This document shows, piece by piece, positions 25,542-41,127 of a stretch of 64,000 nt of DNA. The stretch covers positions 635,412 through 699,411 of the forward strand of contig CP129470.1 in assembly GCA_030583685.1 (NCBI GenBank). The letters run 5' to 3'. The first letter of the stretch is position 1. Every line of letters starts with the position of its first letter. Source of the DNA: Candidatus Dojkabacteria bacterium. GTDB lineage: Bacteria; Patescibacteriota; Dojkabacteria; GCA-002793355. Below the pieces are notes generated by a model that saw only the letters and a program-made list of their open reading frames with translations, was not told the DNA's origin and did not search any database. Made by a program: the position numbers and the translations under genes.

Positions 25542-26807
25542 GTGCTATACTGTGCTATGAAGCTATTCTCCCTTTTCGGAGGGGCACAATCGGCAAAGAA
25601 AACCTCCAAATATCTGATATCTCTTGATATTGGTACAGAGGTTATGAAAGGTCTCTTGTTTTCAATGTCGAATCTTGGGGTAGATATTTGGGCGACCAAT
25701 CAAGTAACGCAACAAACTCACGCAATGCGAAGTGGTGTTATTCTTAACAGCGATACGGTTCTCGAGAATGCCCGATTATGTGTACAAAAGCTGGTCTCAA
25801 AATTGGAACCACAGGAAGTACCGACCAAAATGGTACTTGGAATGGCCGGTGAACTGGTCAATGGTATTTCAATTCGTGTATCGTACGATCGCGGTCGCGA
25901 TGCAGGGAGAAAAATATCTGAAAGCGAGGCAAATACCGTTGTTGAAAATGTTATCAGTGATATTCTTACCAAAGGTAGGGATGAATTAGCAAAAAGGCTT
26001 GATACCACAGAGGACAATGTTGAAGTATTACAAATTACCGTAACAGGAATGTTTGCAGATGGTGTCAAAATCGAATCGATGATTGGTTCTTCTCCTGAAG
26101 AAGTCGTGCTTCATTTGTATGCATCGTTTGCGCCAAAAACATATATCAATACGTTACGAGAACTTTCAGATGAACTTGGATTGGAAATTGCGTCGATAGT
26201 CACGCAGCCCTTTGCTGTTTCTCGATCGTTTGCAGGAAGTTGGGACTCTCAATTTTCGGGAATTTTTATTGATATTGGAGGAGGGACAACAGATGTCGCT
26301 CTCGTGCAAAATGGCGATACGATTCAAACACAGATGTATGCGTTTGGAGGCCGTGCATTTACCAAGAAAATTGCGCAATCAATGGATGTGAGTTATACAG
26401 TAGCGGAAGGCAGAAAAATTAAGTATGCAACAGGCGAATTACCACAAGATTTGCGTGATGAAGTCAGACGACTCATTGCGCCAGATGTACAATTGTGGCT
26501 TGATGCGTTGGTTGTTGCAATGGAAGAGTTTGAAAATGTTGAGGAATTCCCTCCGCAATTCTTCTTGTGTGGAGGTGGAGCAATGCTTCCAGACTTGAAA
26601 GAAGCAATACTTTCTTATCCGTGGCACAAACACCTTCCGTTCAAACGATTGCCAAAAGTTATGCTGGTAACACCTGATAAACTTGATAAGGTATATGACA
26701 AAAGCGGGTTACTCATTCATCCGTATGATGTGACACCAACGTCATTAGCAAAATTTTATTGGGATGTCCTTCGGCTGCCCAATCTTAATTATTTAGGAAC
26801 CTATTAA
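25542..26807 (+). CDS. FtsA/PilM-like actin-fold ATPase (probable cell-division FtsA)
   Basis: Phosphate-1 motif LISLDIGTE and the adenosine/phosphate-2 motif FIDIGGGTTDVAL. 421 aa. Confidence 0.65.
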   Translation: MLYCAMKLFSLFGGAQSAKKTSKYLISLDIGTEVMKGLLFSMSNLGVDIWATNQVTQQTHAMRSGVILNSDTVLENARLCVQKLVSKLEPQEVPTKMVLGMAGELVNGISIRVSYDRGRDAGRKISESEANTVVENVISDILTKGRDELAKRLDTTEDNVEVLQITVTGMFADGVKIESMIGSSPEEVVLHLYASFAPKTYINTLRELSDELGLEIASIVTQPFAVSRSFAGSWDSQFSGIFIDIGGGTTDVALVQNGDTIQTQMYAFGGRAFTKKIAQSMDVSYTVAEGRKIKYATGELPQDLRDEVRRLIAPDVQLWLDALVVAMEEFENVEEFPPQFFLCGGGAMLPDLKEAILSYPWHKHLPFKRLPKVMLVTPDKLDKVYDKSGLLIHPYDVTPTSLAKFYWDVLRLPNLNYLGTY

Positions 26808-26809
26808 CC

Positions 26810-28810
26810 ATGATTGATGCAGTACCAGAAAAAAAAATTGTCAAAATAAATGCCACTATCGATGACGATATCAACTTAATTCTTGATGCCATTATCAAAG
26901 TCGAGGCGGCCTATGTTATGTTGGTTTTACCTGAGGGTAATGACCTCGCAAATAGTCCGATTGGGTTGAAGGCACTACGAAAGAAAACACTAGAAAAAGG
27001 AAAGAGAATGGTTCTCGTTGTGCCGAAAGGAAGTGGCTATGAATTGGCGAAAAAGGCAGGATTCATCGCCTCTGTTTCTCAAGATGCGGTGACGGGGGAT
27101 GTTTGGCAGACGGTGAATGAACAGTACGATGAGTATAAACAGTCTCAAGCGGGAATGAATTCGAAAAAAGAACAAACCCGACAGTTAGAGAAACCTGAAG
27201 TTGAGTATATTGCCCCTGTTGCAAAAGCAAATCTCCCGGTACCAGAAATTATACGAGGTGGAGCAACTCAAACCTCACCAGAAGAAGGCGAGAGCGAGGT
27301 TGCGGAGGGTGAGTCCGAGAAAAAAAAGATGGTTGAGCCGCCAAAAATAAAAGAATCTGAAGAACCCAAGAAAGATACTAAACAAGAACCTTCGGAAAGA
27401 GAGAAAATGGCAGCTCAAAATGTAACGGGTATGGATTTCTCAAAATTCGTTAAAAGTAGTCCGAAATCATTCTGGGGTAAGCCGAAGGCTGCGCCAATGT
27501 CCGCAAATACGATAGTCGCTCCAAACGAGGTTAATACCTTCCATCCAGATATCGTTCCGAAGAAAGTTGGTGCGACGCTGGGTAAAGTGGGTAAAAAAGG
27601 AATGTCCGGTGTCGCAAAAATTATTCTTTTTGGCCTTATTGCCTGTCTCCTGTTGGGTGGTGGGGTGTTTGCTGCATGGTATGCGTATTTCCCAAAAATT
27701 CGAATAGAGTTGCAGCTGCAATCAACAATGATGTCTGTTAGTGAACAAGTTCTTGCAACTTCGGCAGTAACGGGGTTTGATGTTAATCGTAAAGAGGTTC
27801 AACTAACGAAAGAACGGGTAGAGAAGAACGCAACGCAGTCATTTACTGCGACTGAAAAGAGTGCTGACGGAACAAAAGCAACGGGAACGATTACCGTGAG
27901 TAGCTCAGGACCAGTAACGATTCAAGCAGGAACTTTGGTGACAATTAAGACAAAGAAGTTTTCTGTAACAACACAGACTGTTGCTAACGGAGCGTCAAAT
28001 TTAGTTCCTGTTACTGCTTCTGATTTCGGTACTGACTATAATCTTGAGGCGTGTGCACTTCCTTCAGAATGTGACATTGATGTCGCAAAATCTGGCATTG
28101 AGCCCATTGGAAACTCCGCGTTTACCGGTGGTACCAAGCGAGAATTTACCGTAGTTGGGCAGAAAGATGTTGATGCCGCAACAAAAGAGTTACAAACGGA
28201 GCTGGGAAAGCAAGGCGAGGCAGATCTCATGTATATGAATATGGATAAGGGCTATGAATTTATTCCTGAATCGGTAAAAACAGAAGTTAAAGACAAAGTT
28301 GCGGTTTCTCCTGCTGTTGGCAAAGAGGTAAAAGAAGCTGAAGAGGATCCAAATATTTCCATGACAACGGTCACTACCGCACTGTATTATCACCGAGAAT
28401 CATTGGAAATTATGGCGGAACGACTTCTGCTTGATAAATACAAGATTGAGAAAAACCTTTCGTTGGAAGCTGCTGCACTGACACAGATTAACAAAAATGA
28501 ACTCAAGGTTACGGTTGAGAAAATTACTGTTGATAAAGATGAAAAAGTTACCATTACTTTTTCTGCAACTGGGCTGGTTACCTCACGGGTGGACGTAGAT
28601 AAGATTCGTAACGATGTTGCAGGGAAGAAATGGCCAGAAATGTTGGAATATCTTTCTAAGCTTCCCGCGTTGGCCCGTGCTCCTGAGGTATTGTCGTTTC
28701 CCACATGGCTTCCTGAGTATGCCCGTTATGTACCTGGCGAGGTGAGCCGTGTTGATGTGCGCGTTCGGGTGGTTCCCCCTGAGCCGACAACAACTCCAGA
28801 AGCTGAGTAG
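26810..28810 (+). CDS. hypothetical bitopic membrane protein, 666 aa. N-terminal cytoplasmic region, Lys/Glu-rich linker, one TM, large extracytoplasmic domain
   Basis: Start overlaps the FtsA-like stop. TM helix IILFGLIACLLLGGGVFAAWYAYF at about residue 265. No recognisable motif. Possibly a division-associated protein, from context. Confidence 0.5.
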   Translation: MIDAVPEKKIVKINATIDDDINLILDAIIKVEAAYVMLVLPEGNDLANSPIGLKALRKKTLEKGKRMVLVVPKGSGYELAKKAGFIASVSQDAVTGDVWQTVNEQYDEYKQSQAGMNSKKEQTRQLEKPEVEYIAPVAKANLPVPEIIRGGATQTSPEEGESEVAEGESEKKKMVEPPKIKESEEPKKDTKQEPSEREKMAAQNVTGMDFSKFVKSSPKSFWGKPKAAPMSANTIVAPNEVNTFHPDIVPKKVGATLGKVGKKGMSGVAKIILFGLIACLLLGGGVFAAWYAYFPKIRIELQLQSTMMSVSEQVLATSAVTGFDVNRKEVQLTKERVEKNATQSFTATEKSADGTKATGTITVSSSGPVTIQAGTLVTIKTKKFSVTTQTVANGASNLVPVTASDFGTDYNLEACALPSECDIDVAKSGIEPIGNSAFTGGTKREFTVVGQKDVDAATKELQTELGKQGEADLMYMNMDKGYEFIPESVKTEVKDKVAVSPAVGKEVKEAEEDPNISMTTVTTALYYHRESLEIMAERLLLDKYKIEKNLSLEAAALTQINKNELKVTVEKITVDKDEKVTITFSATGLVTSRVDVDKIRNDVAGKKWPEMLEYLSKLPALARAPEVLSFPTWLPEYARYVPGEVSRVDVRVRVVPPEPTTTPEAE

Positions 28811-29048: not shown

Positions 29049-29636
29049 ATGAACAATAAAGAAATCGGAGCACGTATTCGTCGTGAGCGTATAAAAAAGG
29101 GCTGGTCACAGCAACAACTTGCTAAACGTGTGGGAGTGACGTGGGAAATGATTAGCAGGTATGAGCGTGGGGTTTCTTCGCCACTAAAACAACTTTTTCC
29201 CATTGCAGAAGCATTAGAATTAAACCCAAATACATTATTTGGAGTGAAAACAGATTTGGGTAACTTTGCCGATGGCAGTGCCGAGTACTTGTCGACTAGA
29301 TTTATCCCAATTCTTTCTGTCATTCCTGTCTCCTCATTTGATTTAGTACAGATGTTGCAAACAACTGACGCGGGAATGCGATTGTTCGACGATGGCCAGC
29401 AGATTGAGAAATTTGGCATTAAACTCGGTCCTGACTCGAAAATTCGCGTTGCGTCCGCTCTCCTTCTTCCAAAAGGAACGTTAATTTGTACTCTTTCGCT
29501 TGCCAATCTTTCTGAAAAATCGTTAGTATTAGTGACACGCCAAGGGTTGATTACCGTTGAACAGTATAATCCACGAGATATGAAAACCTCCGTATTAGCA
29601 AGGGTACTGGAATGGGTAGTCAAATTTGACGACTAA
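29049..29636 (+). CDS. XRE-family helix-turn-helix transcriptional regulator with an uncharacterised C-terminal domain
   Basis: HTH_3 signature IGARIRRERIKKGWSQQQLAKRVGVTWEMISRYERG. The C-terminal 120 aa lack an S24 (GDSM) peptidase motif. Confidence 0.75.
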   Translation: MNNKEIGARIRRERIKKGWSQQQLAKRVGVTWEMISRYERGVSSPLKQLFPIAEALELNPNTLFGVKTDLGNFADGSAEYLSTRFIPILSVIPVSSFDLVQMLQTTDAGMRLFDDGQQIEKFGIKLGPDSKIRVASALLLPKGTLICTLSLANLSEKSLVLVTRQGLITVEQYNPRDMKTSVLARVLEWVVKFDD

Positions 29637-29657
29637 TCGGGGAGAGAGCTTACGACA

Positions 29658-30407
29658 GTGACAGATGCATCAACTTTTTGGCAATCGTCCTGCTTGAATA
29701 TTACAAGAGGAAGGAGTATAATAACTATGGGACAGAGCTCGCATACGCCCGCGTACAGTCGTGAAAGTAGGGAACTGGTCGATCGTATAGGAGAGGTTAT
29801 GGCTTTTGAGGATTATCTTACGACAATTTTAGCAATTCCTTTTGAACGTATTAGGTCGAAACTGCAAACTGTTTTAGAATTACGTCAATTGTTTCCAGGC
29901 TATAGACCTGACGATGCTTGGTATCAGGGATCATTGGATGGATTACATGAGTTAAAACGAATGACCTTAGCACAAGGGTTGTTTAAGATTGGTTTTGTCC
30001 GCAACAAAATTGCGAAAAGATACATTAAACCTGCCAAGGATGCGAAGAAAGAGATGATTGTAATGCTGCTATCTCAAAGGAATGCACCAAAAAAGTTGTT
30101 CGAAAGGGATGGGGAATATCAAGGGTTACATGAACTCCTCTGCCGTAATGGGAAACCCTCAATGTTTAAGATGGCTAAAATTCTTTCTGTTGTTGCTCCG
30201 ACTTTGGCAGGGGTGATTCCCCGTGAAGTCATCACCAAAGCGATAGATACGATGCACCATACACTGTATGGTGATGCTCTTCATCAATCAGTTATCGCAA
30301 CTCGTGAAAAAGTGAAGGAATGTTCGGATGTCACCGCTGTTATCTATTGGCTTGCACTGAAAATAGCAGTAAAATTACAAAAGCAAAATGACTCGGCAGT
30401 ACCCTGA
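29658..30407 (+). CDS. hypothetical protein (the true start is probably an internal Met)
   Basis: 249-aa ORF overlapping the next ORF by 20 nt. No motif. Confidence 0.45.
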   Translation: MTDASTFWQSSCLNITRGRSIITMGQSSHTPAYSRESRELVDRIGEVMAFEDYLTTILAIPFERIRSKLQTVLELRQLFPGYRPDDAWYQGSLDGLHELKRMTLAQGLFKIGFVRNKIAKRYIKPAKDAKKEMIVMLLSQRNAPKKLFERDGEYQGLHELLCRNGKPSMFKMAKILSVVAPTLAGVIPREVITKAIDTMHHTLYGDALHQSVIATREKVKECSDVTAVIYWLALKIAVKLQKQNDSAVP

Positions 30408-31224
30408 AGAAGCATTATCAATACGTGAAACAATTGATGTTGGTATTGGAATTAAGGATTTACCTAAAGTATTAGGGGATTTCACTGGTAACTTAGAAGT
30501 GACACTACCAGGGCAGTTATTAAAACACTTTGTCTCAGAACAATTTAAGGTGCATGTCTTGGCGAAATTCGAATTAGTCAAGGGAATACAAGAATTGTCC
30601 GCACTCTTTCCCGGCCTCGGAAATAATATAGAAAGAGAAACGTGGTTACGGAGATTGTTACCTGAAGATGAATGCAAAAGTCTTCAAGAGGCTATTTGTA
30701 ACGGATATTCAACGAATAATTTGTATCGTGCATTTATTGTTGGTAAAACACTTATTCAGTATGCAGATTTTGTTCTTGAAGAGTTCATGGTTCTGTTTGG
30801 AAAAAGGGAACTCCCTCCTGATTTTCCGCAAGGAAGAAAGGGTGAACTTCAAATATTCAAGGAATTATGTAGCCAACGTCGACGAGGAGAGGAAGAAGAA
30901 AAGTTTTCGCAACAAGTCTTTGCGATTATGAAGGATGGAATGTTCTATTTTAATACTATTGACCCGACAAACAGAGAATTTGTTCTGAGAAAATGGAAAA
31001 AAATCCTCATTGCTTATGCGAATAAAGCCTACGAAGGAAGACGAGACGGAAACGACTTACTTTTAGCAAAAACGCAGCAAGAAGTAATTAATAATCTCTC
31101 TCCTGGTGCAGTGTATGTGTATGCAGCAGTCATGTTATGGAAGTATCCGTTACAGTATGATGACCAGCAACCAGTACGGAATCCCTATTCGTGGATTGAA
31201 GAGGCAAGTAAGGTAGGGAATTAA
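30388..31224 (+). CDS. hypothetical protein
   Basis: 278-aa ORF co-oriented with and overlapping the previous gene. No motif. Confidence 0.45.
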   Translation: MTRQYPEEALSIRETIDVGIGIKDLPKVLGDFTGNLEVTLPGQLLKHFVSEQFKVHVLAKFELVKGIQELSALFPGLGNNIERETWLRRLLPEDECKSLQEAICNGYSTNNLYRAFIVGKTLIQYADFVLEEFMVLFGKRELPPDFPQGRKGELQIFKELCSQRRRGEEEEKFSQQVFAIMKDGMFYFNTIDPTNREFVLRKWKKILIAYANKAYEGRRDGNDLLLAKTQQEVINNLSPGAVYVYAAVMLWKYPLQYDDQQPVRNPYSWIEEASKVGN

Positions 31225-31243
31225 CCCGCTGTATTAATACGCC

Positions 31244-31272
31244 TTGACACACTTTCAAAACTCCTATACAAT
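31244..31272 (+). promoter_or_regulatory. near-consensus sigma-70-type promoter TTGACA-17-TACAAT
   Basis: TTGACA at 31244-31249, 17-nt spacer, TACAAT at 31267-31272. Confidence 0.6.
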
Positions 31273-31278
31273 CCCCTT

Positions 31279-31484
31279 TATCATGACACAGCCAGTGGTC
31301 AAAACTCAGCCCCAGGATTCCCTGTTGGTTGCGGTTGCACGGTCGTTGTCTTCTCTTATTTCCCCCATGCGTTGGGCAAAGTATCACCTTAGCCTTTCAC
31401 TCTTTGTCCTTTTTATTAAGACATCGGGGGGATAACTTTTATCAAACATAAAAAGAAAGTTAAACCCCCGAAAGGGGGTTTTTT
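31279..31484 (+). ncRNA. candidate small RNA or 5' leader/attenuator of about 200 nt, bounded by the promoter above and an intrinsic terminator
   Basis: No credible ORF: the 63-aa ORF at 31244-31435 starts inside the -35 box. The transcript ends in a strong terminator immediately (18 nt) before the next ATG. Confidence 0.4.
31462..31484 (+). terminator. Rho-independent terminator: CCCCC-GAAA-GGGGG stem-loop followed by TTTTTT
   Basis: aaacccccgaaagggggtttttt read directly. GNRA-type GAAA loop, 5-bp GC stem plus flanking A/U pairs, 6-T tract. Confidence 0.8.
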
Positions 31485-31501
31485 AGTTAATAAACATAAA
31501 A

Positions 31502-32584
31502 ATGAAAACATACCTGGTCCCAGTCCATGTGGACCCAGTAAAACCAATGAATCCGAGTCACTTGAGACATATATTGTATGTGGACTTTCTTTATAGGCAA
31601 TTTAAGGCTCTTGGTCATGACGTGGTGTATTTATACAATAGGTTGTGTTTTGATGTATCAAACCAGGTTATTAAGCTCGCAAAGTTTTTAGAATCTAGGA
31701 AAAGTAAAGTAGAAACCTCACTAGATATTGGGTTGCAGTACATTCAAATGACCTCAGAGAGATTTGAGATTGATGCTGATACCCTCTATGAAGAACGCGC
31801 ACAACAACAAACACACTTACATGGATATCCATATTATTCTATTCTGTTAGAGGATTGGAAGCGTGAGCATGAACTCTTAGACGTATTTGACCCAGGCTTT
31901 AGGTCTCCACGACGAATCAGGTTGACAGTACAAGAGGTGAGTACTGTTTTGAACGATCTTGGAGTGATATTTGACGCACGAAGAATTGATGGGAACATTT
32001 ATCTCGATTTGACTCCAGAAGGATTGCCAATGAGGAAGATTATTGGGGTGAATGAATATAGTTATAACTATTTGTTTATTGTTCTCAGGGAGCTGTTCGA
32101 GTACGTAAAGAAAGGAGATGAAGTATATTTTGTTTTTGATCCTGACTTGAGTTTAGACTATGAGTTGCTGAAGAGAGTCTTGAAAAAATACGGATGTCAC
32201 GTATTCAACCTAACAACCTCTCGGATTTCATTAGGTGGAAAAATACAATCAGCACGTAAAGGTGGATGGCAGGGATATACAACTAAAGATATTTTACATA
32301 GGTATACGCCCCGATTTTCTAGTAATAGCATAGGTCTAGCGATAAGACATTATCTTCTTGCAAAAAATGCAGTACATAAGCAATTTGATTTTTCTTATGA
32401 TGAATTTGAAAAATCGTTTGAGTTTGCACAAGCAGTTGAGAAGAAGTATGGCAGTCTTTCTTTTTCAGAGCTGATTGAAAAAGTCTATTCTCCAAATAGC
32501 GATTATTCTCCACCTTTGACGCGTAGTTTTAATATTTGGAGCACAAAAATTGAGAAAAATAAATCAAACGAGACAAAAAGATGA
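31502..32584 (+). CDS. class-I aminoacyl-tRNA-synthetase-like catalytic-domain protein (CysRS/MshC-type paralog) with a degenerate HIGH motif (HLRH)
   Basis: NPSHLRHILYVDFLYRQFKALGHDVVYLYN aligns with the CysRS/MshC pattern CHIGHaRs...D...RyLr..GydV.yv.N. A possible KMSKS-like stretch GGKIQSARKG appears at about residue 245. 360 aa, about the size of a catalytic core alone, with no anticodon-binding domain. Confidence 0.4.
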   Translation: MKTYLVPVHVDPVKPMNPSHLRHILYVDFLYRQFKALGHDVVYLYNRLCFDVSNQVIKLAKFLESRKSKVETSLDIGLQYIQMTSERFEIDADTLYEERAQQQTHLHGYPYYSILLEDWKREHELLDVFDPGFRSPRRIRLTVQEVSTVLNDLGVIFDARRIDGNIYLDLTPEGLPMRKIIGVNEYSYNYLFIVLRELFEYVKKGDEVYFVFDPDLSLDYELLKRVLKKYGCHVFNLTTSRISLGGKIQSARKGGWQGYTTKDILHRYTPRFSSNSIGLAIRHYLLAKNAVHKQFDFSYDEFEKSFEFAQAVEKKYGSLSFSELIEKVYSPNSDYSPPLTRSFNIWSTKIEKNKSNETKR

Positions 32585-33237
32585 AGGTGTCAAATCTGTA
32601 TCTCAATCAAGCGAAATTACAAGAGTACTATATGAGTCGAGTACAAGCAGCAGAATATGTTCCCGGAGAAGAGAGCAAAAATGCGATTGTAGTAATTTTA
32701 TTTGAGTATACTTTTGAAGAGTATGCACACGCATTGTTTAAATTGCATGAATCATTATTGGATGAAGAAAAAACAGTATGGCTTCAAAATTTTACGGAAA
32801 CTCATTTTCTTTTAGGGAATCCGCGTACTGTTTGTCAGAAAGATCCTGAAGACTTTGTTTATATTTCTGACGCGATTGCAGTTTCTCGACTTCTGCCAAG
32901 TAAGGTCGCAAAAGGGTACGTCTCCCGATGTCCTCGGTATTCACCAATCAAATCAAGAGTCATGCAATACGCTGCCATTTCTCAGAAGGAATCAGAAAGA
33001 CTTGAAGTGGTATTGTGTCGTTCAGATATTCCCGAAGAAATAGTGCTTATTGATTTATCTCATGTTGTCAATGAATACTTGATTAATAACCCTCTCGAGA
33101 TTGGAAAAGTGGTTAGTATTAAGTTCTTATCTGAACGAGAACAAGGTGAGGATGTGGTTTCATGGGACAGAACTCGAGTTGTATTCAATGCAGATGTAAA
33201 AGAATATGAATTAAGAGCATATATACGTGAATTCTAA
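32581..33237 (+). CDS. hypothetical protein
   Basis: 218 aa, overlaps the neighbours by 4 and 11 nt (operonic). No motif. Confidence 0.45.
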   Translation: MKVSNLYLNQAKLQEYYMSRVQAAEYVPGEESKNAIVVILFEYTFEEYAHALFKLHESLLDEEKTVWLQNFTETHFLLGNPRTVCQKDPEDFVYISDAIAVSRLLPSKVAKGYVSRCPRYSPIKSRVMQYAAISQKESERLEVVLCRSDIPEEIVLIDLSHVVNEYLINNPLEIGKVVSIKFLSEREQGEDVVSWDRTRVVFNADVKEYELRAYIREF

Positions 33238-33865
33238 TACAAAAAAATTCATAGTCCTGCTTGGCGGTGACGGAGCAGGGAAAACGTCGGTAATCAAAAA
33301 TTTGGGGCTGGATTGTTGTAGTGTCATTTCGTATTCTGAAACTCCGGTTTCCAATCGAATAGAATCTATGTGTGAAATTGAAAAGATTGTTCGCAAGGAC
33401 CTCCTCCCTCAATTTTCTACCATGTCTCCGCAGTTTAGAGTTGCAGTCTACAACTTATTTGTTGCCTATATGGCCGAGTCAATTTCTCATGAAATATGTC
33501 GAAACAATGTCATTTGCGACTCATATTATTACAAGTTCATGGCAAAGGAAATTTTATCAGGTGTCGATGCGAACCAGTTGCAGATTTGGAAAACACTCCA
33601 AAGGCCAGATGCCGTTGTGTATTTAGATGCTGATCCACGTCTTGCTTACAGAAGGATAAAAAAAACTCGTGCTATTCAAAGTAATGAAAAATTCGTAGAC
33701 GATCGAGAGGAAGAAGGATTTATTCGGTTACAAAAACGATTAAAAGAACAAATGATTGAGATTATTCGAAAATCCAATATCCCCCTCAGTCTCGTGGACG
33801 CGAACAAACCATTGAAGGATGTTTGTCTGCAAGTTCAAAATAATATTATTGAAATCTTAAAATGA
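33227..33865 (+). CDS. thymidylate-kinase-family (Tmk-like) nucleoside monophosphate kinase paralog
   Basis: Walker A KFIVLLGGDGAGKTS aligns with Tmk KYIVIEGLEGAGKTT. ICDSYYYKFMA aligns with the DRH/Y..S.AYQ region. The lid PDAVVYLDADPRLAYRRIKK aligns with PDLTLYLDV.PEV.LKR. The DR(Y/H) motif is replaced by DSY. Confidence 0.6.
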   Translation: MNSNTKKFIVLLGGDGAGKTSVIKNLGLDCCSVISYSETPVSNRIESMCEIEKIVRKDLLPQFSTMSPQFRVAVYNLFVAYMAESISHEICRNNVICDSYYYKFMAKEILSGVDANQLQIWKTLQRPDAVVYLDADPRLAYRRIKKTRAIQSNEKFVDDREEEGFIRLQKRLKEQMIEIIRKSNIPLSLVDANKPLKDVCLQVQNNIIEILK

Positions 33866-34638
33866 ATTTGGGGTTAAAAGACAAAAAAATTGTTGTTACC
33901 GGTGGTGCGAGTGGGATAGGAAAGGCAATCGCACTCGATCTCTGTAGAGAAGGAGCTTTCCCTATAATTATTGATCGTGATGAGTCTGCACTTTTACGTC
34001 TTAGGAAGGAGATAGGTGATGCAAGGATAAAAACATTTGTCTGTGATTTGTCTGATTGTTTAGAAACAAAACAGGTAATTTCACAGATTAATAAAATATT
34101 CGGAGATGAAATCTATGGCTTGGTTAACAATGCTGGAGTAAACGACGGGGTTAGTCTTTTGGACGGAATTTCCGCATTTCAGGCTTCATTACAAAGAAAC
34201 TTGATTCACTATTTTCAAATGACCAGTGGGTTGATGGAAAGTATCAAAAAAAATCAAGGGTCAATACTCAATATCTCTTCAAAAGTTGCTGAAACGGGGC
34301 AAGGAGGAACATCAGGATATGCTGCTGCAAAAGGAGCAATTAATGCGTTAACAAGAGAGTGGGCACTTGAGCTTGCGCAGTATGGAGTAGATGTAAATTG
34401 TATCGTTCCCGCTGAAGTGATAACACCTCAATATGAAAAGTGGATAAAAAACGAATCTGATTCTCGAAAAGTTCGGAACATACTTCGTAAGATTAACCTG
34501 GGAAAGCGTCTTACCAGACCAGAAGAAGTAGCAGATTTCGCAATATTCTTGCTGTCACAAAGAAACACACACACAACGGGGCAGTTAGTCTTTGTGGATG
34601 GTGGATATACGCACTTAGATGATTCAACGTCAGTATGA
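33862..34638 (+). CDS. short-chain dehydrogenase/reductase (SDR)
   Basis: TGGASGIGKAIALDL (TGxxxGIG), NNAG, and the catalytic YAAAKGA (YxxxK). 258 aa. Confidence 0.85.
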   Translation: MNLGLKDKKIVVTGGASGIGKAIALDLCREGAFPIIIDRDESALLRLRKEIGDARIKTFVCDLSDCLETKQVISQINKIFGDEIYGLVNNAGVNDGVSLLDGISAFQASLQRNLIHYFQMTSGLMESIKKNQGSILNISSKVAETGQGGTSGYAAAKGAINALTREWALELAQYGVDVNCIVPAEVITPQYEKWIKNESDSRKVRNILRKINLGKRLTRPEEVADFAIFLLSQRNTHTTGQLVFVDGGYTHLDDSTSV

Positions 34639-35297
34639 AAGAGAAGTTTATGACAAAAATCAGAAAGTTTGCAAAAGAGTGCATGGGAAAAGTTCCAGCG
34701 CACGGTTATGACCATGCTTTCCGAGTCGGAATAATGGCCCGGAATATTGCACGAAAGGAAAGCTTAAAAAAATTATACCTGTATGAAATCGCAGGTCTTC
34801 TGCATGATATTGGGTTGGATTTTCCCGACAGGTCAAAACACGGGGAGATTGGAGCAAAGAAAGCTTACAGCTTCTTGAGACAAGAGACGGATTTGTCTAT
34901 CACAGAATTATCTGAAATTACGTATGCGATTTCTTATCACAACCGGAAGCTATCAGCACCAAAGCATTCTCTTATACTTGATGTTCTTGCAGACGCTGAT
35001 ACGTTAGATTTATTGGGGGCAATAGGGATTTGGAGAGGAATCCAATCTCGTGCAGATGCTAATCTCCCTTCTCCGAGACAAGTAGCAGCTGCGATGAATC
35101 GATTTGAAGAGTATAACAAGAGCCGGAAAGATAAACGCGAAAACAACACGCATAGTATTGCTGAACAAATTAATTTTCAGATTCAATCTGCCAAGATAAT
35201 TACAACAAGTACGGGTAAAAAGATGGCAGAACCTTTACTTGCAACAATGAGGCATTTCCGATACATGATTGTCGAAGAGTTAACCCAATCTAAGTAG
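34635..35297 (+). CDS. HD-domain metal-dependent phosphohydrolase
   Basis: H...HD motif: HGYDHAFRV ... LLHDIGL. 220 aa. Confidence 0.65.
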   Translation: MKEKFMTKIRKFAKECMGKVPAHGYDHAFRVGIMARNIARKESLKKLYLYEIAGLLHDIGLDFPDRSKHGEIGAKKAYSFLRQETDLSITELSEITYAISYHNRKLSAPKHSLILDVLADADTLDLLGAIGIWRGIQSRADANLPSPRQVAAAMNRFEEYNKSRKDKRENNTHSIAEQINFQIQSAKIITTSTGKKMAEPLLATMRHFRYMIVEELTQSK

Positions 35298-35301
35298 CAT
35301 T

Positions 35302-35502
35302 ATGAACGAATTTCTTGATTCACACATCCCTTTGTGGAAGTATAAGAAGAAAGATTACTTCTTTGAAAAGTATCTTTTGAGAATTGGAAACGCCGAAAAG
35401 CTCTTTTGTGGTGGAGTTTTAGTTCAGGTACGACAAGGTAGGAATGAAACAGTTTACAGAAACTTATATACGGTATTTTTGACAGAATATGGTGAAATAT
35501 AA
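35302..35502 (+). pseudogene. decayed duplicate of the N-terminus of the amidohydrolase gene at 36736
   Basis: MNEFLDSHIPLWKY...CGGVLVQVRQGRNETVY against MNIIDTHIHLWKY...SGGVLVQARQSGEETEF of the ORF at 36736-37581. The metal-binding His is replaced (HIHLW to HIPLW) and the copy is truncated at 66 aa. Confidence 0.5.
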
Positions 35503-36739
35503 AGAAAATATGACTTCACAGGGCGGAATTGGCATAATTCCGGAGCAAGTGCTTTTGGCGCTTTTGGAGTATTCTCTTAATAGAAGTGTATTGACTAATA
35601 AGGCAGGTCTGATGGTTAAGATGAGTTATGGGAATGAGAGGGTATTTGCTGGTCGATATGGATTGCTTGCTGAGTGTCCTTTTGATACAAGATTCCCAGT
35701 GGGTTCTATCTCAAAGGTTAAGGTGTTAGGAGAAATTCTTAGCCTCGTATCAGAAGGCAAAGTAGTGCTAAACGAGCAGATTAAGGCCTACTTACCATGG
35801 TTAGCTGACTCAGCTGTTGGACAAAAACAAATTTTCACAATTTTTAACCATAGTACTGGACTATCAAGAGATGGTCTCTGGGGGAATGGTATAACACCAG
35901 AATATCCATCTGAAGTTGAGTTGAGGGCATATGTACGGGAATGCTCACTTGTTGAGGACATTGTGTGGAAGTATTCAAACATCGGCTTCGAGATAGCTCG
36001 TATGATTATTGAAAGTGTAACAGGGCGAGTGTATCCAAACTCTTTGTCAAGGAAAAACGATTTGCAAGTCTCTTTGTATGGTTTTGCTGATGAGGGAAGT
36101 TTGATTGCAGTACCTCATGAAGATCCCAAAGCTATGACTGCTTCTATTGGGCAATACATGTCTCTCGATGAAATTATTACGCTTTACCAATCTACAGTGC
36201 AGAAATATTCGAAGTTCATCTTTGATGAGCAATATCGAGTCGAACGTGCACCAGAACCTGTTTGGTTACTTGGTGTTTCTGAATGGCAAGATGTAAAGGA
36301 GGAGGTATATCATGGTCACCAAGGAAATGGATATGGATACTCTGTAAAAGTCGCAGTGACGCAGAGCTTAGAACACAGTGTCGTGATTTTCAGTAATGTC
36401 ATAAAGTACCCAGTGCATGAGATTTCAAACAAGCTTCTGCGAATCGCTAAACTGCTTTCTGCTACAAAACTAAAGAGCGCAGTAGGCTGGAAGGTGACGA
36501 AATTTCAGAATCGTACCTTAGCTCTCCTTGTTGCATATAACAGTGAGAGTGCGTTCTTCTTTCGTGAGGGAAATCATACTTTTTACGATTGGGTGATGCA
36601 GGCGGATGGGGATATTACCACTGGAGCTCTCATAAATAGAGGAGGAACTAATGCATTTATAGGAGAAATTGCAACAATTAATCAGGAGGAATTGACGATT
36701 GGTCCGTATAAACTTGAGAAAAAGAATAAGTTATTATGA
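35489..36739 (+). CDS. beta-lactamase-fold serine hydrolase (class C beta-lactamase / D-aminopeptidase / esterase superfamily)
   Basis: SxxK active-site motif in the typical context FPVGSISKVKVLGEIL. 416 aa. Confidence 0.6.
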   Translation: MVKYKENMTSQGGIGIIPEQVLLALLEYSLNRSVLTNKAGLMVKMSYGNERVFAGRYGLLAECPFDTRFPVGSISKVKVLGEILSLVSEGKVVLNEQIKAYLPWLADSAVGQKQIFTIFNHSTGLSRDGLWGNGITPEYPSEVELRAYVRECSLVEDIVWKYSNIGFEIARMIIESVTGRVYPNSLSRKNDLQVSLYGFADEGSLIAVPHEDPKAMTASIGQYMSLDEIITLYQSTVQKYSKFIFDEQYRVERAPEPVWLLGVSEWQDVKEEVYHGHQGNGYGYSVKVAVTQSLEHSVVIFSNVIKYPVHEISNKLLRIAKLLSATKLKSAVGWKVTKFQNRTLALLVAYNSESAFFFREGNHTFYDWVMQADGDITTGALINRGGTNAFIGEIATINQEELTIGPYKLEKKNKLL

Positions 36740-37581
36740 ATATCATTGATACACATATTCATCTTTGGAAGTATATTCCTGAGCAGTATTCATGGATTAC
36801 GGAGGAGATGAAAGTACTTAAGCAGGATTTCCTGTATTCACAGTATAAACAGCAAGTAAAGAGTTCTGGAGGAGTCCTTGTTCAAGCCAGACAGTCAGGG
36901 GAGGAGACTGAATTTCTGTGTGGTATCGCAAATCAGTATAATGATGTTATCGCAGTTGTTGGTTGGATGGATTACCAAGAGGATGAGCCTTCACAAATGA
37001 TAGCAAGAATTAAAGAACAACCACAATATGCAAAACTGACTGGTTTTCGACATTTAGTTCAAGATGAGCCTGATTTGAGATTTATGCTTCAGGAAAAGTT
37101 TAGATCATACCTTGAGCTACTTGCTAAGGAGAACTATACCTATGATGTTCTTATTCGCTCCCATCAAATGAAACAGTTTCTTGAGTATTTGCATACAACC
37201 GAGACTAATAAACAACCTGTGCTGGTTTTGGATCATATTGCAAAACCTGTTATTGGGGGACCTAAAGAATTATTTAACAAATGGCAACAGGACATACGGG
37301 AAATTGCGAAACACGAGAATGTGAATTGTAAGATATCTGGACTCTTAACAGAAGCGAGTACCGGTTCAACTCCAATTTTCACTCCATATCTTGAGGTAGT
37401 GCTTGAAGCTTTCGGAGTCGACCGACTCGTTTTGGGATCTGATTGGCCAGTGTGTACTTTGAGAGGGTCGGGGACTCAATCACTTTCGGTTTCTGTAGAT
37501 TTCTTGCAAGCCAATCTTGTTCAATCTGATTTAGAAAAAATACTTAATTTAAATGCCATACGGATATATGGAAAAAATTAG
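36736..37581 (+). CDS. TIM-barrel metal-dependent amidohydrolase (Amidohydro_2 / COG3618-like)
   Basis: N-terminal metal-binding motif IDTHIHLW. 281 aa. A paralogous fragment lies at 35302. Confidence 0.6.
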   Translation: MNIIDTHIHLWKYIPEQYSWITEEMKVLKQDFLYSQYKQQVKSSGGVLVQARQSGEETEFLCGIANQYNDVIAVVGWMDYQEDEPSQMIARIKEQPQYAKLTGFRHLVQDEPDLRFMLQEKFRSYLELLAKENYTYDVLIRSHQMKQFLEYLHTTETNKQPVLVLDHIAKPVIGGPKELFNKWQQDIREIAKHENVNCKISGLLTEASTGSTPIFTPYLEVVLEAFGVDRLVLGSDWPVCTLRGSGTQSLSVSVDFLQANLVQSDLEKILNLNAIRIYGKN

Positions 37582-39304
37582 TAACGTAATCGCTGCGCCA
37601 CAATTATCCGACTATTTTGTTTCTCATGCTGAAATTGAATATCTTTATGATGGAGAGGGAGAAAATTCTGGTGCTATAGATCCTAATGCTCTATCTGCGG
37701 GAGGTGGACCATTTATTTTTCGAATGATTTTAAGATTTGTCGATACAAGTCGGGCCGTTGCATCAGAAATTCCTAATAGATTGCAACAAACATTAAAGCA
37801 AGTTCTGCCTTCGATGGGAAATCAAGCGATTCAAGAGTTGAACTCGCAAATTGTTAGTCATTTGGAGCGGATGGGTATAAATTCTCTAGAGTCATTCGAA
37901 TATCTTGAGAAGAAAATTATCGAAAAGATGCCTGATATTCTTGAACTTTACAACAATACAGCACTGATTCAACGTTTGAACGGATTGTTTGAAACGGAAT
38001 ATGGAATCGTTTGGTTCGCACCAAAATTGTGGAGGGAATATAAACTGCGCCAGATAGAGCTTTTCTTAAAAGCAGTGAGACAAGGGAAGCAAATAGGTCC
38101 TTTTGCAGCTGATTTTAACAAAAATATGAAAGCGTATCTTGATACTCTTTGCCAAACGCTTGAACCAATTCCACCCGAGTATGTTACATTTGATGTTGAA
38201 TGGGAAACTGACTTTAGTTACTACGTTGCCTATAAAAAGAGTCAGGAAGGTGTTATTATACGAGTATTGATGGATTTGCACTCCAATAGTGGCTTGTTTG
38301 CTGAGATCCCATTACAAGCAATCCTTGCTCCATACGGAAAGAAACGATACAACGATGTTTATGGACTACTACTTGAATCTGATGCAGGGGTACAGGAAAG
38401 GAACGGTTTTAGATATACGAATCATAAATGTAAGATCATAATTGAGGAAGGTGGGCGAAAAGAACTTTGTTTCTCTTCTGGCATCATGATTAAGCTTGCA
38501 GATTCTGTTACAACAACACGCGAGGCTATCCAAGGAGATTTTAAGCAATATGCATATCTTTGGGAATGGTTCGATAAATCAAAGTTTGATTACTCACGGG
38601 ATAGTCATCGAAAGATGTATCTCTCAAGTTTTTTAAATGCAAAATCTGGATTTTTCGAAATTTTCAAGTATGCTCAGGAAAAATATGGTATTTCGTTGAA
38701 GTATCCAAAAACGAATGTGTTTGGGAAGAAAAGTATTCCAAATATGGACGGTTACTCTGAGTTTGTCAATATTAAAGATGGTGGCTGGTGTTCTACTGGA
38801 GGAAAACATGTACACCTTGTTAAAAAGGAGCACCTTAAGAGAGATGTTGAGAAATTACATTATCCTGGTTACCTTGTGCAGATACATATACCTTCACTTC
38901 TTTTTATTCATGAGGATGGAACAAAATATCATGGACACGCACGAAAAGTTTCGATTGTCAATCGAAGTGGTGACATTGTTCATCTCGGTTTCTTCTTGCG
39001 TATGGTTGAAGAGAGTAAAGGAAACAGTTCAGGTTACCGAGCTTATCGTATGGTATTTAATGATGAAGGGAATTTCATTGTTTCGTATAGAACTGGGGGA
39101 GAACCACAAACATACTTGTCGCTTGAGGAAACAAAACTCAAGCCATTAGTAAGCGATTTGAAAGCATTTCTAATTGAGGTAAAACAGGAATGGCATAAAC
39201 AAATTTATGCATTAAATAAATTTGTTGCAGAAGAAGATGTGCCAGCTTTTGTCGCACAACTCGTAAAAGATGGTAAACTGTCAAAGAGATATTTAATAAG
39301 TTAA
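37553..39304 (+). CDS. large hypothetical protein (583 aa) with no recognisable motif
   Basis: Long uninterrupted ORF co-oriented within the enzyme cluster. Contains the Cys/His-containing stretch GGWCSTGGKHVHLV...HYPGY...HGH, but no assignable family. Confidence 0.55.
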   Translation: MPYGYMEKISNVIAAPQLSDYFVSHAEIEYLYDGEGENSGAIDPNALSAGGGPFIFRMILRFVDTSRAVASEIPNRLQQTLKQVLPSMGNQAIQELNSQIVSHLERMGINSLESFEYLEKKIIEKMPDILELYNNTALIQRLNGLFETEYGIVWFAPKLWREYKLRQIELFLKAVRQGKQIGPFAADFNKNMKAYLDTLCQTLEPIPPEYVTFDVEWETDFSYYVAYKKSQEGVIIRVLMDLHSNSGLFAEIPLQAILAPYGKKRYNDVYGLLLESDAGVQERNGFRYTNHKCKIIIEEGGRKELCFSSGIMIKLADSVTTTREAIQGDFKQYAYLWEWFDKSKFDYSRDSHRKMYLSSFLNAKSGFFEIFKYAQEKYGISLKYPKTNVFGKKSIPNMDGYSEFVNIKDGGWCSTGGKHVHLVKKEHLKRDVEKLHYPGYLVQIHIPSLLFIHEDGTKYHGHARKVSIVNRSGDIVHLGFFLRMVEESKGNSSGYRAYRMVFNDEGNFIVSYRTGGEPQTYLSLEETKLKPLVSDLKAFLIEVKQEWHKQIYALNKFVAEEDVPAFVAQLVKDGKLSKRYLIS

Positions 39305-39316
39305 TAAAACTTTCTG

Positions 39317-40651
39317 ATGAAACTTTATGAAAATTACCAAAAATCGTTACAGGAGCTGGTTGCATTACAATCCATTTCTACTGACCCAACTTTTGCGCAG
39401 GGCATTGAGGACACCGTTCAGTGGCTCGTTTCGTACTTTGAAAAAAATGGCTTCTCTGTAGAGCGAGTAGATGGATATGGCAACCCGATTGTTGTCGCAC
39501 GGTATACCGTTGCGCCTGAAAAAGAAACCTATTTTGTGTACGGACACTACGATGTACAGCCTGCTTCTCAGGAAGACGGTTGGGAGAGTGATCCTTTCTC
39601 TTTGACGGAGCGTGATGGAAAGTTATACGGACGCGGAGTTGTTGATAATAAAGGGCAATTTATGGTGCATTTAACCAGTATTGTTGCTTTGATTGAAGAG
39701 GGAAAACTTGAAAAGAATGTTGTGTTTGTTGTTGAAGGAGATGAGGAAACCGGTGGCGAAGGCATCACGAAACTTTTTGAGGCACGACCCGAGTTATTCA
39801 AGGCAGATCAATATATTATTTCAGACGGAGAAATGCCGTACAAACCTGTAATCACTGCTTCTTTCCGAGGGACCTTTAATATCACCGCAAAAATTACGAC
39901 TGCTGCAAATAACTTGCACTCTGGTCTGTATGGCGGCGCAGCACCAAGTGCCACAGTTGTTGCGTCAAAACTGGTTGCGGGCATGTATGACGATGAGAAC
40001 AGACTGGCGATTACTGGATTCTATAATAACGATTTGGTCGCAGATGAAGTTGAAATGCAACTTTGTCGTGACATGGATGCAGTGAAGACAGCAACTCTTG
40101 AGCAAACTGGCGTGAAAAAATGGTTTACTGGCCCAAACAACTCATTCTGTGAAGTCGTTGGCTTTACCACTATGGTGGTTCCTTCTGGAATTTCAAGTGG
40201 CTATACCGGCAGTGGTTACTCAAACATTGTGCCTGCCTCTGCGCTGATCAAGATGAATGTCAGAATCGCAGCAAATCAGACGGTTGAACAAGTGAAAACG
40301 TTGCTTGAGCACTACTTTGCAAAAAATACTCCAGAATACGCAACAACGGAGCTGATTGAAATGCAGAGCAATAATGAACCAATCAAGGTGAATATTAACT
40401 CAGATATGCACAAAAGAACTATTCAATTGCTCGAGGAAGTCTATGGAGACAAGGTATTGATTGACTATTGTGGTGCAACTCTTCCGGTGGTAATTGATAT
40501 CAAACGCGTTTTTGGTGCTGATCCCGTACTGATTTCTTTGGCGAATGATGATTGTAATATGCATGGAGTCAATGAGAATTACGATATCGAGCTCTTGAAG
40601 AAAGGATTGGAGTTTTCTTACCGATTGTTTGGCGGGAATAGTAATGGGTGA
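39317..40651 (+). CDS. M20-family metallopeptidase (dipeptidase/ArgE/DapE-like)
   Basis: Metal-binding motifs GHYDVQPA, VDNKGQ and EGDEETGG. 444 aa. Confidence 0.75.
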   Translation: MKLYENYQKSLQELVALQSISTDPTFAQGIEDTVQWLVSYFEKNGFSVERVDGYGNPIVVARYTVAPEKETYFVYGHYDVQPASQEDGWESDPFSLTERDGKLYGRGVVDNKGQFMVHLTSIVALIEEGKLEKNVVFVVEGDEETGGEGITKLFEARPELFKADQYIISDGEMPYKPVITASFRGTFNITAKITTAANNLHSGLYGGAAPSATVVASKLVAGMYDDENRLAITGFYNNDLVADEVEMQLCRDMDAVKTATLEQTGVKKWFTGPNNSFCEVVGFTTMVVPSGISSGYTGSGYSNIVPASALIKMNVRIAANQTVEQVKTLLEHYFAKNTPEYATTELIEMQSNNEPIKVNINSDMHKRTIQLLEEVYGDKVLIDYCGATLPVVIDIKRVFGADPVLISLANDDCNMHGVNENYDIELLKKGLEFSYRLFGGNSNG

Positions 40652-41111
40652 GTATTTAGAAGGTAGTTTCTTCTCTCGAGTTCATGAGATTGAAAGGTAT
40701 GAAGGAAGTCAGCTTGTGCTATGCTCGATGTCAGAACAAAACAGGTTTACCTTAGCACTTACACAGAAAACAGGTAAAAAACACCTTATTGCCGCCAAGG
40801 TCGTAATTGAGGTCTCCGCTCCGAGTTCTTTTCCTATACCACAAGACCATCTAAGAAGCTTACAAATGTATAATAGAATAGCTAGCTATGCTTTTAAATC
40901 GTATAAAATAGAGAAAGGGTATGGTAGCTATTTGTGGAAAAAAGCAGATGAGTGGGTGAAAATGCAACGCCTTCCTGTATTTATTGAAGATACTAATCCT
41001 ATGTCATCAGCCGGATGGACAAGTGCAATGATAATAAAGTTGCATCCTAACGCTCAATATCTTGGAAAGAATGAAAGAGGAAACCACACATGGATATACA
41101 ATAAGAAATAA
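40629..41111 (+). CDS. hypothetical protein
   Basis: 160-aa ORF overlapping the M20 gene's 3' end. No motif. Confidence 0.35.
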   Translation: MAGIVMGEYLEGSFFSRVHEIERYEGSQLVLCSMSEQNRFTLALTQKTGKKHLIAAKVVIEVSAPSSFPIPQDHLRSLQMYNRIASYAFKSYKIEKGYGSYLWKKADEWVKMQRLPVFIEDTNPMSSAGWTSAMIIKLHPNAQYLGKNERGNHTWIYNKK

Positions 41112-41127
41112 AATTTGAACTCGTCTT

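What the first reader, a model, noticed from the sequence alone, without database searches (positions are those of the whole stretch)
31502..32584. Stand-alone class-I aaRS catalytic-domain paralog with a degenerate HIGH signature
The N-terminal 60 residues follow the CysRS/MshC/MetRS template closely (P..H..H..DFLYRQFKALGHDVVYLYN versus HIGH.R...D...RYLR.LGY.V.YV.N). The HIGH motif reads HLRH, there is no anticodon-binding domain, and the protein is only 360 aa. Such paralogs are rare and usually mark specialised ligase chemistry, as with mycothiol ligase or tRNA-independent glutamyl-queuosine synthetase.
Basis: partly seen in the sequence, partly recalled or inferred. Interest (0 to 1): 0.65.

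Follow-up and report, generated by a model that had tools for sequence, protein, structure and literature searches.

The report
Orphan ArgRS-derived ligase-like enzyme family
This gene encodes a stripped-down relative of the enzyme that loads arginine onto tRNA; it has lost its arginine- and anticodon-reading parts, is always paired with an unknown partner protein, and belongs to a widespread, unstudied family found in gene clusters that look like small-molecule biosynthesis.

The parts
31502..32584 (+). ArgRS-derived stand-alone class I aaRS catalytic-core paralog (360 aa)
31535..31570 (+). HIGH-loop region, residues 12-23 (P-V-K-P-M-N-P-S-H-L-R-H). K14 is the ArgRS HIGH-loop lysine, N17-H20 (31550-31561) is the true HIGH equivalent, and R22 is the basic residue after HIGH.
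   Evidence: Gap-free alignments to Ph/Tt/Ec ArgRS; conservation K14 120/122, P15 117, P18 115, H20 113, K/R22 119
32237..32269 (+). KMSK-equivalent loop, residues 246-256 (G-K-I-Q-S-A-R-K-G-G-W), of the degenerate ArgRS type
   Evidence: Aligns to PhArgRS EGKFSGRKGTW and EcArgRS GKPFKTRAGG; G246 117/122, S250 115, R/K252 121, G254 118, G255 111, W256 113
32581..33237 (+). DUF6182 partner protein (218 aa); its start overlaps the aaRS-like stop (ATGA)
   Evidence: PF19680 2.1e-07, family HMM 1.5e-44; immediately downstream in 76/81 loci, with a 4-nt overlap in 61 of 76; junction sequence
33227..33865 (+). Thymidylate-kinase-like P-loop kinase (212 aa), a conserved module member
   Evidence: PF02223 4.4e-13; family F3 HMM 1.4e-67; a P-loop kinase (F3/F10/F32) is present in 74/81 loci
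33862..41111 (+). Accessory genes of this version of the cluster: SDR (33862-34638), HD phosphohydrolase (34635-35297), 66-aa ORF (35302-35502), beta-lactamase-fold serine hydrolase (35489-36739), Amidohydro_2 (36736-37581), 583-aa unknown (37553-39304), M20 dipeptidase-like (39317-40651), 160-aa unknown (40629-41111)
   Evidence: Pfam/NCBIfam; HD + Amidohydro_2 + ~590-aa + ~140-aa set recurs next to aaRS-like/DUF6182 in L090; M20 recurs in L001, L084, L087, L089
31244..31484 (+). Promoter-leader-attenuator cassette: sigma70-like promoter 31244-31272, 50-aa leader ORF 31283-31435, G-run 31426-31431 (candidate anti-terminator strand), terminator hairpin plus T-run 31462-31484
   Evidence: Best promoter match of the region, 11/12; hairpin; conserved with compensatory changes in L001; 91.5% identical in L084, where the rest of the island is unrelated; 5 synonymous vs 3 non-synonymous codon differences plus an in-frame indel
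29633..41127 (.). Strain-variable genomic island that holds the cluster, including unknown genes 29658-30407 and 30388-31224
   Evidence: blastn window vs L084: flanks 98.6% (to 29632) and 99.1% (from 41128) identical, interior unrelated except the leader

Best explanation
The gene encodes a non-translational enzyme that descends from the catalytic core of arginyl-tRNA synthetase. Shown: it keeps the class I Rossmann core with its insertion, the ArgRS-specific HIGH-loop lysine (K14), the last HIGH histidine (H20) with the following basic residue (R22), the Asp aligned to ArgRS D338 (D213), and ArgRS's own degenerate KMSK loop (S250-A-R252-K-G-G). It has lost the Add1 domain, most of the anticodon-binding domain, and every residue that ArgRS uses to hold arginine (D118 to V6, N123 to D11, D317 to R196, Q341 to S217). 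Inferred: it still binds ATP and adenylates a substrate that is not arginine. That substrate is probably an amino-acid-like or otherwise anionic carboxylate, given the conserved Arg at the former D317 position. It then transfers the acyl group to a small-molecule nucleophile rather than to tRNA, as MshC and the MetRS-like hydrazine-synthetase domains do. It probably works as a complex with the translationally coupled DUF6182 protein, which may supply acceptor binding or replace the activating role that tRNA plays in ArgRS. It acts in one pathway with a P-loop kinase. The module is a portable cassette found in clusters for small peptide-like or amide-linked specialised metabolites. In this Dojkabacteria genome it sits in a strain-variable island and is switched by a leader-ORF transcription attenuator.
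Against: No activity was measured. The first His and the Gly of HIGH are replaced (T/N-P-S/T-H), which could weaken or change nucleotide binding, and a small subclade lacks even H20 (W/F). ArgRS is one of the few synthetases that needs tRNA to activate its amino acid (PMC3956977), so a tRNA-free descendant must have solved that differently. The protein and its partner are basic (median pI 8.3 and 9.35 vs 5.3 for E. coli ArgRS), which would also suit RNA binding. The clusters already contain other adenylating ligases, so the need for one more is unexplained. The substrate, the acceptor and the role of the kinase are unknown. The residue mapping around D317/R196 rests on a low-probability profile alignment and could be off by 1-2 positions.
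Confidence: 0.55

Rival explanations
1. It is a tRNA-dependent enzyme. Either it uses a pre-charged aminoacyl-tRNA as acyl donor for a small molecule, as the IleRS-like SbzA does. Or it loads or modifies a tRNA without reading the anticodon, as GluQRS does, with the basic DUF6182 protein supplying RNA binding.
Against: Add1 and the anticodon-reading part are absent. No tRNA gene lies in the window. The neighbours are small-molecule enzymes, not RNA enzymes. High pI is common in high-GC actinomycete proteins. The DTD adjacency occurs once.
Confidence: 0.2
2. It activates a phosphate or phosphonate oxygen rather than a carboxylate, acting as a nucleotidyl transferase that makes an AMP-phosph(on)o anhydride, as other HUP-fold nucleotidyltransferases do. 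The kinase and phosphohydrolases would handle the same phosphorylated intermediates.
For: Phosphoryl chemistry recurs in every cluster type: P-loop kinases, HD phosphohydrolase, HAD phosphatase and AfsA, whose product is a phosphorylated butenolide by established knowledge, and a PepM-clade enzyme whose stop overlaps the aaRS-like start. Many invariant Arg residues are present (R160, R178, R196, R241, R252, R282). A T-x-x-H variant of HxGH is known in HUP nucleotidyltransferases (own knowledge).
Against: The homology is specifically to an aminoacyl-adenylate-forming enzyme, over the whole core including the insertion. No aaRS descendant is known to do this. The evidence is context only.
Confidence: 0.1
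3. It is a catalytically dead scaffold or regulatory subunit, as HisZ is for ATP-phosphoribosyltransferase. It would organise or regulate DUF6182, the kinase or the GH3 ligase.
For: HIGH is badly degenerate. The protein is always partnered. Other adenylating enzymes are present in the clusters.
Against: The residues that stay invariant are those of the nucleotide/catalytic site (K14, H20, D213, S250, R252, G254-G255), including a lysine that matters only for catalysis in ArgRS. A dead scaffold would not be expected to keep them across phyla.
Confidence: 0.08
4. It is a self-protection protein: an ArgRS-like decoy that binds or sequesters an aaRS-targeting antimetabolite made by the cluster.
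For: Resistance copies of synthetases are common in clusters for aaRS inhibitors (own knowledge). Natural ArgRS inhibitors exist (bioRxiv 10.64898/2025.12.02.691738, listed). The island varies between strains, as antagonism loci often do.
Against: It cannot replace ArgRS because it lacks tRNA-binding domains and arginine contacts. Known resistance synthetases are full-length and functional. The tight coupling to DUF6182 and the kinase is not explained.
Confidence: 0.04

Closest known systems
Arginyl-tRNA synthetase (ArgRS, EC 6.1.1.19), especially the archaeal/Thermus type that lacks canonical KMSK
   Different: No Add1 domain and no anticodon-reading part. HIGH reads T/N-P-S-H. All arginine-binding residues are replaced, D317 by Arg. 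It is encoded in accessory clusters and always paired with DUF6182. It cannot be the housekeeping ArgRS.
MshC (mycothiol cysteine ligase), a CysRS paralog
   Different: MshC derives from CysRS, keeps a canonical HIGH-type signature (own knowledge), acts alone, and has a defined housekeeping role in Actinobacteria. The new family derives from ArgRS and is two-component.
MetRS-like domains of N-N bond-forming hydrazine synthetases (e.g. PyrN C-terminal domain, PDB 9l8v)
   Different: Derived from MetRS, fused to another domain, and embedded in a different pathway logic (own knowledge).
SbzA (IleRS-like) and GluQRS (GluRS paralog)
   Different: Both depend on tRNA: SbzA uses Ile-tRNA as donor (PMC12945691) and GluQRS modifies tRNA-Asp. 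Both descend from other synthetases and have no DUF6182 partner.

Membership tests
Class I aminoacyl-tRNA synthetase superfamily (HUP Rossmann catalytic domain) | Rossmann-fold catalytic core split by a connective insertion | tested here: met
Class I aminoacyl-tRNA synthetase superfamily (HUP Rossmann catalytic domain) | HIGH signature (H-x-G-H) | tested here: not met
   The aligned tetrapeptide is N-P-S-H (family T-P-[ST]-H); only the last His is kept, in 113/122
Class I aminoacyl-tRNA synthetase superfamily (HUP Rossmann catalytic domain) | KMSKS signature | tested here: inconclusive
   Not canonical, but the loop G-K-I-Q-S-A-R-K-G-G aligns with ArgRS's own degenerate version and is near-invariant
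Class I aminoacyl-tRNA synthetase superfamily (HUP Rossmann catalytic domain) | ATP-dependent amino-acid activation and tRNA aminoacylation | not testable with these tools
   Needs ATP-PPi exchange and aminoacylation assays
Arginyl-tRNA synthetase | Catalytic core specifically related to ArgRS, with the HIGH-loop lysine | tested here: met
Arginyl-tRNA synthetase | N-terminal Add1 domain (tRNA D-loop recognition) | tested here: not met
   The protein begins at strand beta1, which aligns to E. coli residue 115; Add1 is about 100 aa in ArgRS (PMC3956977)
Arginyl-tRNA synthetase | C-terminal DALR anticodon-binding domain | tested here: not met
   No DALR hit in Pfam; the alignment ends at E. coli residue 473 of 577
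Arginyl-tRNA synthetase | Arginine-binding residues (E. coli D118, N123, Y313, D317, Q341) | tested here: not met
   V6/Ala, D11/Thr, R196 and S217/variable at the aligned positions; Tyr possibly kept as Y190. Alignment uncertainty of +-2 around 190-196.
MshC / CysRS-type ligases | Closest sequence and structure relationship to CysRS | tested here: not met
MshC / CysRS-type ligases | Zinc-mediated cysteine recognition site | not tested
   Not examined; no conserved Cys appears among the family's near-invariant residues
GluQRS (YadB) | Closest relationship to the GluRS catalytic domain | tested here: not met
Known anti-phage defence systems (PADLOC) | Match to a defence-system protein model | tested here: not met
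   No hit for the aaRS-like protein or DUF6182; only weak kinase and HD hits

The most novel reading that the evidence does not exclude
The ArgRS-core protein, DUF6182 and a P-loop kinase together form a previously unrecognised two- or three-component ligation system that has spread across bacterial phyla as a portable biosynthetic cassette. It activates an anionic (acidic, phospho or phosphono) amino-acid-like substrate by chemistry not yet seen for an aaRS descendant, with DUF6182 taking over the activating role that tRNA has in ArgRS. In Candidatus Dojkabacteria (genome about 0.9 Mb) it would give a CPR bacterium strain-specific small-molecule (antimetabolite-type) production from a swappable island. 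That island is controlled by a new metabolite- or starvation-sensing leader peptide.
Probability: 0.3. Interest if true: 0.82.

Novelty: new variant of a known kind. Interest (0 to 1): 0.68.

Why it matters
Synthetase paralogs that left translation (MshC, GluQRS, cyclodipeptide synthases, MetRS-like hydrazine synthetases) have each revealed new ligase chemistry. I found no described paralog derived from ArgRS (literature search). This family has no Pfam or NCBIfam model and is called 'hypothetical' everywhere it is named. In the source genome the public gene model cuts off the diagnostic N-terminus. ArgRS normally needs tRNA to activate its substrate, so a tRNA-domain-less descendant with an obligate protein partner offers a direct test of how that dependence can be replaced. 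The conserved four-gene module marks many uncharacterised clusters in Streptomyces and other producers, so it is a practical genome-mining handle. Its presence in a strain-variable island of an ultra-small CPR genome suggests that these reduced bacteria invest in variable small-molecule chemistry.

Tried and rejected
(1) Single-sequence searches are almost blind to the family. Pfam gave only tRNA-synt_1d at E 0.097, NCBIfam and PADLOC gave nothing, and PDB phmmer gave nothing. The word-indexed homolog search found 2 relatives and, with the alignment, 3. The first AF2 model from 3 sequences was poor (pLDDT 57). The exhaustive HMMER scan was what unlocked the family.
(2) CysRS/MshC/MetRS as the closest template: rejected in favour of ArgRS.
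(3) HLRH as HIGH: rejected.
(4) The cluster as the known salinipostin-type AfsA/phosphotriester pathway: rejected, because the Spt1-9 Pfam set differs.
(5) A GH3 in the window, or the 583-aa unknown as a diverged GH3: none found.
(6) A T-box or known riboswitch in the leader: no Rfam family near threshold.
(7) More leader copies in JGI metagenomes: the anchored pattern gave 0 hits and the loose pattern gave 113 chance hits with no nhmmer or HMM support. The exact leader peptide is not on record.
(8) DUF6182 function: the profile vs PDB gives only a 21-residue motif match to mitoribosomal mL65. There are no fusions or informative names among 199 homologs and no paper mentions it.
(9) The upstream 278-aa unknown vs the upstream 286-aa protein of L001: no real similarity.
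(10) The afdb50 fold library was unavailable. Model coordinates are not exposed, so 3D clustering of invariant residues could not be computed.
(11) My first GC3-based gene caller failed on high-GC loci and was replaced.

Full report
OBSERVATION. Pfam gives only a sub-threshold match to the ArgRS catalytic domain (tRNA-synt_1d, E 0.097, residues 14-102). NCBIfam, PADLOC and a phmmer search of PDB sequences give nothing. The word-indexed search of 5.8 billion protein clusters found only two relatives, at 97% and 46% identity.

A REAL FAMILY. An exhaustive HMMER scan of 1.84 billion representatives with the three-sequence profile found 84 representatives with E<=1e-3, 35 of them below 1e-30. Nearly all full-length ones are 350-410 aa. 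A pattern-plus-tblastn scan of one genome per species found relatives in at least 124 species. Most are Streptomyces, Nocardia, Actinoplanes, Frankia and Amycolatopsis. Others are Lysobacterales, a Melainabacteria MAG, an alphaproteobacterial MAG, Thermoanaerobaculia and Solirubrobacterales. Every member that carries a source name is 'hypothetical protein', and no member reaches significance against Pfam.

THE MOTIFS, CORRECTED. The gap-free, high-posterior alignments put family 'itPtKPLtPsHlkgLlwlD' on P. horikoshii 'VNPTKPLHMGHARNAILGD'. They put 'LtPsHlk' on E. coli 'MHVGHLR'. H23 is His in only 9 of 122 members and Gly in 88. The signature is thus more degenerate than proposed, because the first His and the Gly are both replaced.

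The conserved residues are telling. K14 (120/122) aligns with the 'HIGH-loop lysine' of ArgRS. That residue is reported as crucial for catalysis in ArgRS, whose KMSK motif is exceptionally degenerate (Sekine et al. 2001, cited in PMC8318970; PMC3956977). H20 (113/122), K/R22 (119) and D28 (121) are kept. So is the ArgRS N-x4-D-x3-Q box (Q55, 120/122). D213 (114/122) aligns with E. coli D338. The loop G246-K-I-Q-S250-A-R252-K-G254-G255-W aligns with 'EGKFSGRKGTW' of P. horikoshii and 'GKPFKTRAGG' of E. coli ArgRS, and it is near-invariant.

The residues that bind arginine in E. coli ArgRS tell the opposite story. Those are D118, Y313 and D317 for the guanidinium group, and N123 and Q341 for the backbone (PMC3956977). 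They align with V6 (family Ala), F192/Y190, R196 (108/122), D11 (family Thr) and S217 (variable). The nucleotide and catalytic apparatus has been kept and the arginine pocket rebuilt. The mapping around residues 190-196 rests on a weak profile alignment and may be off by one or two positions.

GENOMIC CONTEXT. I called genes in 82 loci with a position-specific GC model and clustered the products. A DUF6182 gene follows immediately in 76 of 81 loci. In 61 of those 76 the stop codon of the aaRS-like gene overlaps the DUF6182 start by 4 nt, as in the window (ATGA at 32581-32584). Even the divergent subclade that lacks H20 keeps a short DUF6182-like ORF. A P-loop NMP-kinase-like gene (three subfamilies) is present in 74 of 81 loci and a GH3 acyl-acid amido synthetase in 72 of 81. 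Most absences fall on truncated contigs.

Accessory genes differ by cluster type. Streptomyces clusters add an MmyB-like regulator, an ACP, a tautomerase, an AfsA hotdog enzyme, a HAD hydrolase, two methyltransferases, an FAD enzyme, an alpha/beta-hydrolase, a CMD-family protein and a P450. One Streptomyces protein is an aaRS-like::AfsA fusion. A second type carries an HMG-CoA-reductase fusion. A marine gammaproteobacterial cluster has RND efflux, a PPTase and GH3. Low-GC relatives carry a GCS2 ligase, a DdaG-like ligase and two M20 peptidases, or an ATP-grasp L-amino-acid ligase and an M20. The window itself has no GH3 anywhere in its 64 kb. Instead it has an SDR, an HD phosphohydrolase, a beta-lactamase-fold hydrolase, an Amidohydro_2, a 583-aa unknown and an M20 dipeptidase-like protein. 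Part of this set recurs with the core pair in another organism. The recurring theme is ATP-dependent amide-bond ligases plus peptidases, as in pathways for small peptide-like metabolites. No characterised cluster matched. The salinipostin cluster was checked and differs, and no paper mentions DUF6182.

THE HOST AND THE ISLAND. Exact-sequence look-ups identify the source as a Candidatus Dojkabacteria (CPR/Patescibacteria) MAG with an 888,748-bp contig. NCBI calls the gene 'hypothetical protein QY312_03195' and starts it at codon 27, which removes beta1 and the entire HIGH loop. A sister strain shares the flanks at 98.6% and 99.1% DNA identity but holds a different cluster at the same place. That cluster encodes a PepM-clade enzyme (EDNIFPKQNS; PEP mutase 2.8e-72 and phosphonopyruvate hydrolase 4.7e-62, both below cutoff) whose stop overlaps the aaRS-like start. 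It also has a methyltransferase, DUF6182, two aminotransferases, an M20 and the kinase. The shared core proteins are only 30-41% identical. The region from about 29633 to 41127 is therefore a strain-variable island.

THE LEADER. The only DNA the two islands share is a 259-nt cassette, 91.5% identical, just upstream of the first operon gene. It holds the best sigma70-like promoter of the region (31244-31272, 11/12), a 50-aa ORF (31283-31435) and a strong terminator hairpin with a T-run (31462-31484) 17 nt before the ATG. In the contig of the 46%-identical homolog the terminator changes by compensatory substitutions: CCCCC/GGGGG becomes CCTCCC/GGGAGG. A G-run that ends the leader ORF co-varies so that it can still pair with the terminator's 5' arm: GGGGGG becomes GGGAG. 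Between the two strains the ORF differs by 5 synonymous and 3 non-synonymous codons plus one in-frame indel. A third lineage has a 37-aa ORF with the same M-[ST]-Q start and a similar hydrophobic box. No Rfam family matches. This looks like a ribosome-dependent transcription attenuator; its signal is unknown.

MECHANISM. Shown: ArgRS-type fold and ancestry, retention of the nucleotide and catalytic residues, loss of arginine- and tRNA-reading elements, obligate coupling to DUF6182, and embedding in clusters rich in ligases and peptidases. Inferred: the protein still forms an adenylate from ATP and a non-arginine, probably anionic, amino-acid-like substrate, and passes the acyl group to a small-molecule acceptor. 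DUF6182 would act as a subunit and the kinase in the same pathway. I put this at about 0.55. The main rival is a tRNA- or aminoacyl-tRNA-dependent reaction (0.2). ArgRS's own tRNA requirement and the basic pI of both proteins favour it. Activation of a phosph(on)ate instead of a carboxylate (0.1), a dead scaffold subunit (0.08) and a resistance decoy (0.04) are less likely.

NOVELTY. The kind of thing, a class I synthetase paralog recruited for non-translational ligation, is known. An ArgRS-derived, DUF6182-partnered family with a T-P-S-H signature is not described in the literature I could search and has no family model. I rate it a new variant of a known kind, with interest 0.68.

Noticed in passing
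window 31244-31484: Conserved promoter, 50-aa leader ORF and terminator cassette in front of the operon. The terminator and a candidate anti-terminator G-run co-vary between lineages. It is the only DNA shared by two otherwise unrelated island versions (91.5% identity). No Rfam match. Probably a ribosome-dependent attenuator, with a precursor or scaffold peptide as the alternative reading.
   Followed up: partly
window 29633-41127 vs L084 8127-18560: Strain-variable island. The flanks are 98.6% and 99.1% identical between two Dojkabacteria strains, but the interior encodes different clusters sharing only the aaRS-like, DUF6182, kinase and M20 genes at 30-41% protein identity. The sister version has a PepM-clade enzyme (EDNIFPKQNS) and two aminotransferases, pointing to phosphonopyruvate/phosphonoalanine chemistry of unknown direction.
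   Followed up: partly
window 31502-31579: The public NCBI gene model (WKZ23745.1, 334 aa) starts at codon 27 and omits strand beta1 and the whole HIGH-loop signature. Family-wide conservation of residues 2-26 shows that the 31502 start is correct.
   Followed up: yes
window 32581-33237 (DUF6182); alignment A4: The DUF6182 profile matches a 21-residue motif of mitoribosomal protein mL65/MRPS30 (E 0.0035: WlraFTrtvFLaGnP vs WYQSFTKTVFLSGLP). Invariant W67, G79, P81, H161, E165 and R199. Median pI 9.35. Always a stand-alone single-domain protein.
   Followed up: partly
P0033/P0096 (Streptomyces sediminimaris, WP_412490399.1, 712 aa): A natural fusion of the aaRS-like domain (N-terminal) with an AfsA-related hotdog domain. 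In many Streptomyces clusters a separate AfsA gene lies in the same operon.
   Followed up: no
L089 8001-9149 and representatives P0048, P0050, P0066: A subclade in which the last HIGH histidine is replaced by Phe or Trp (KPVLPTFLRHL). Its DUF6182 partner is reduced to a 103-aa ORF placed upstream, and the neighbours include an ATP-grasp L-amino-acid ligase and a D-Tyr-tRNA deacylase.
   Followed up: partly
L016 13626-15968 and 27 other loci: A 780-aa HMG-CoA-reductase fusion protein followed by a second P-loop kinase-like gene forms an alternative conserved accessory pair next to aaRS-like/DUF6182/GH3.
   Followed up: no
window 25542-28810: An FtsA/PilM/MreB-like actin-fold ATPase (421 aa) is followed by a 666-aa protein with a weak Baseplate_J-like match (1.1e-07). 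Both are conserved in the sister strains' flank.
   Followed up: no
window 45284-47299: A 671-aa protein with a C-terminal Dam-family adenine methyltransferase domain (2.1e-46) and a long unassigned N-terminal half.
   Followed up: no
window 4872-6683: The alanyl-tRNA synthetase is a short 603-aa form (PRK01584 type, 2.1e-186) that lacks the usual C-terminal part. This is consistent with a reduced CPR genome.
   Followed up: no
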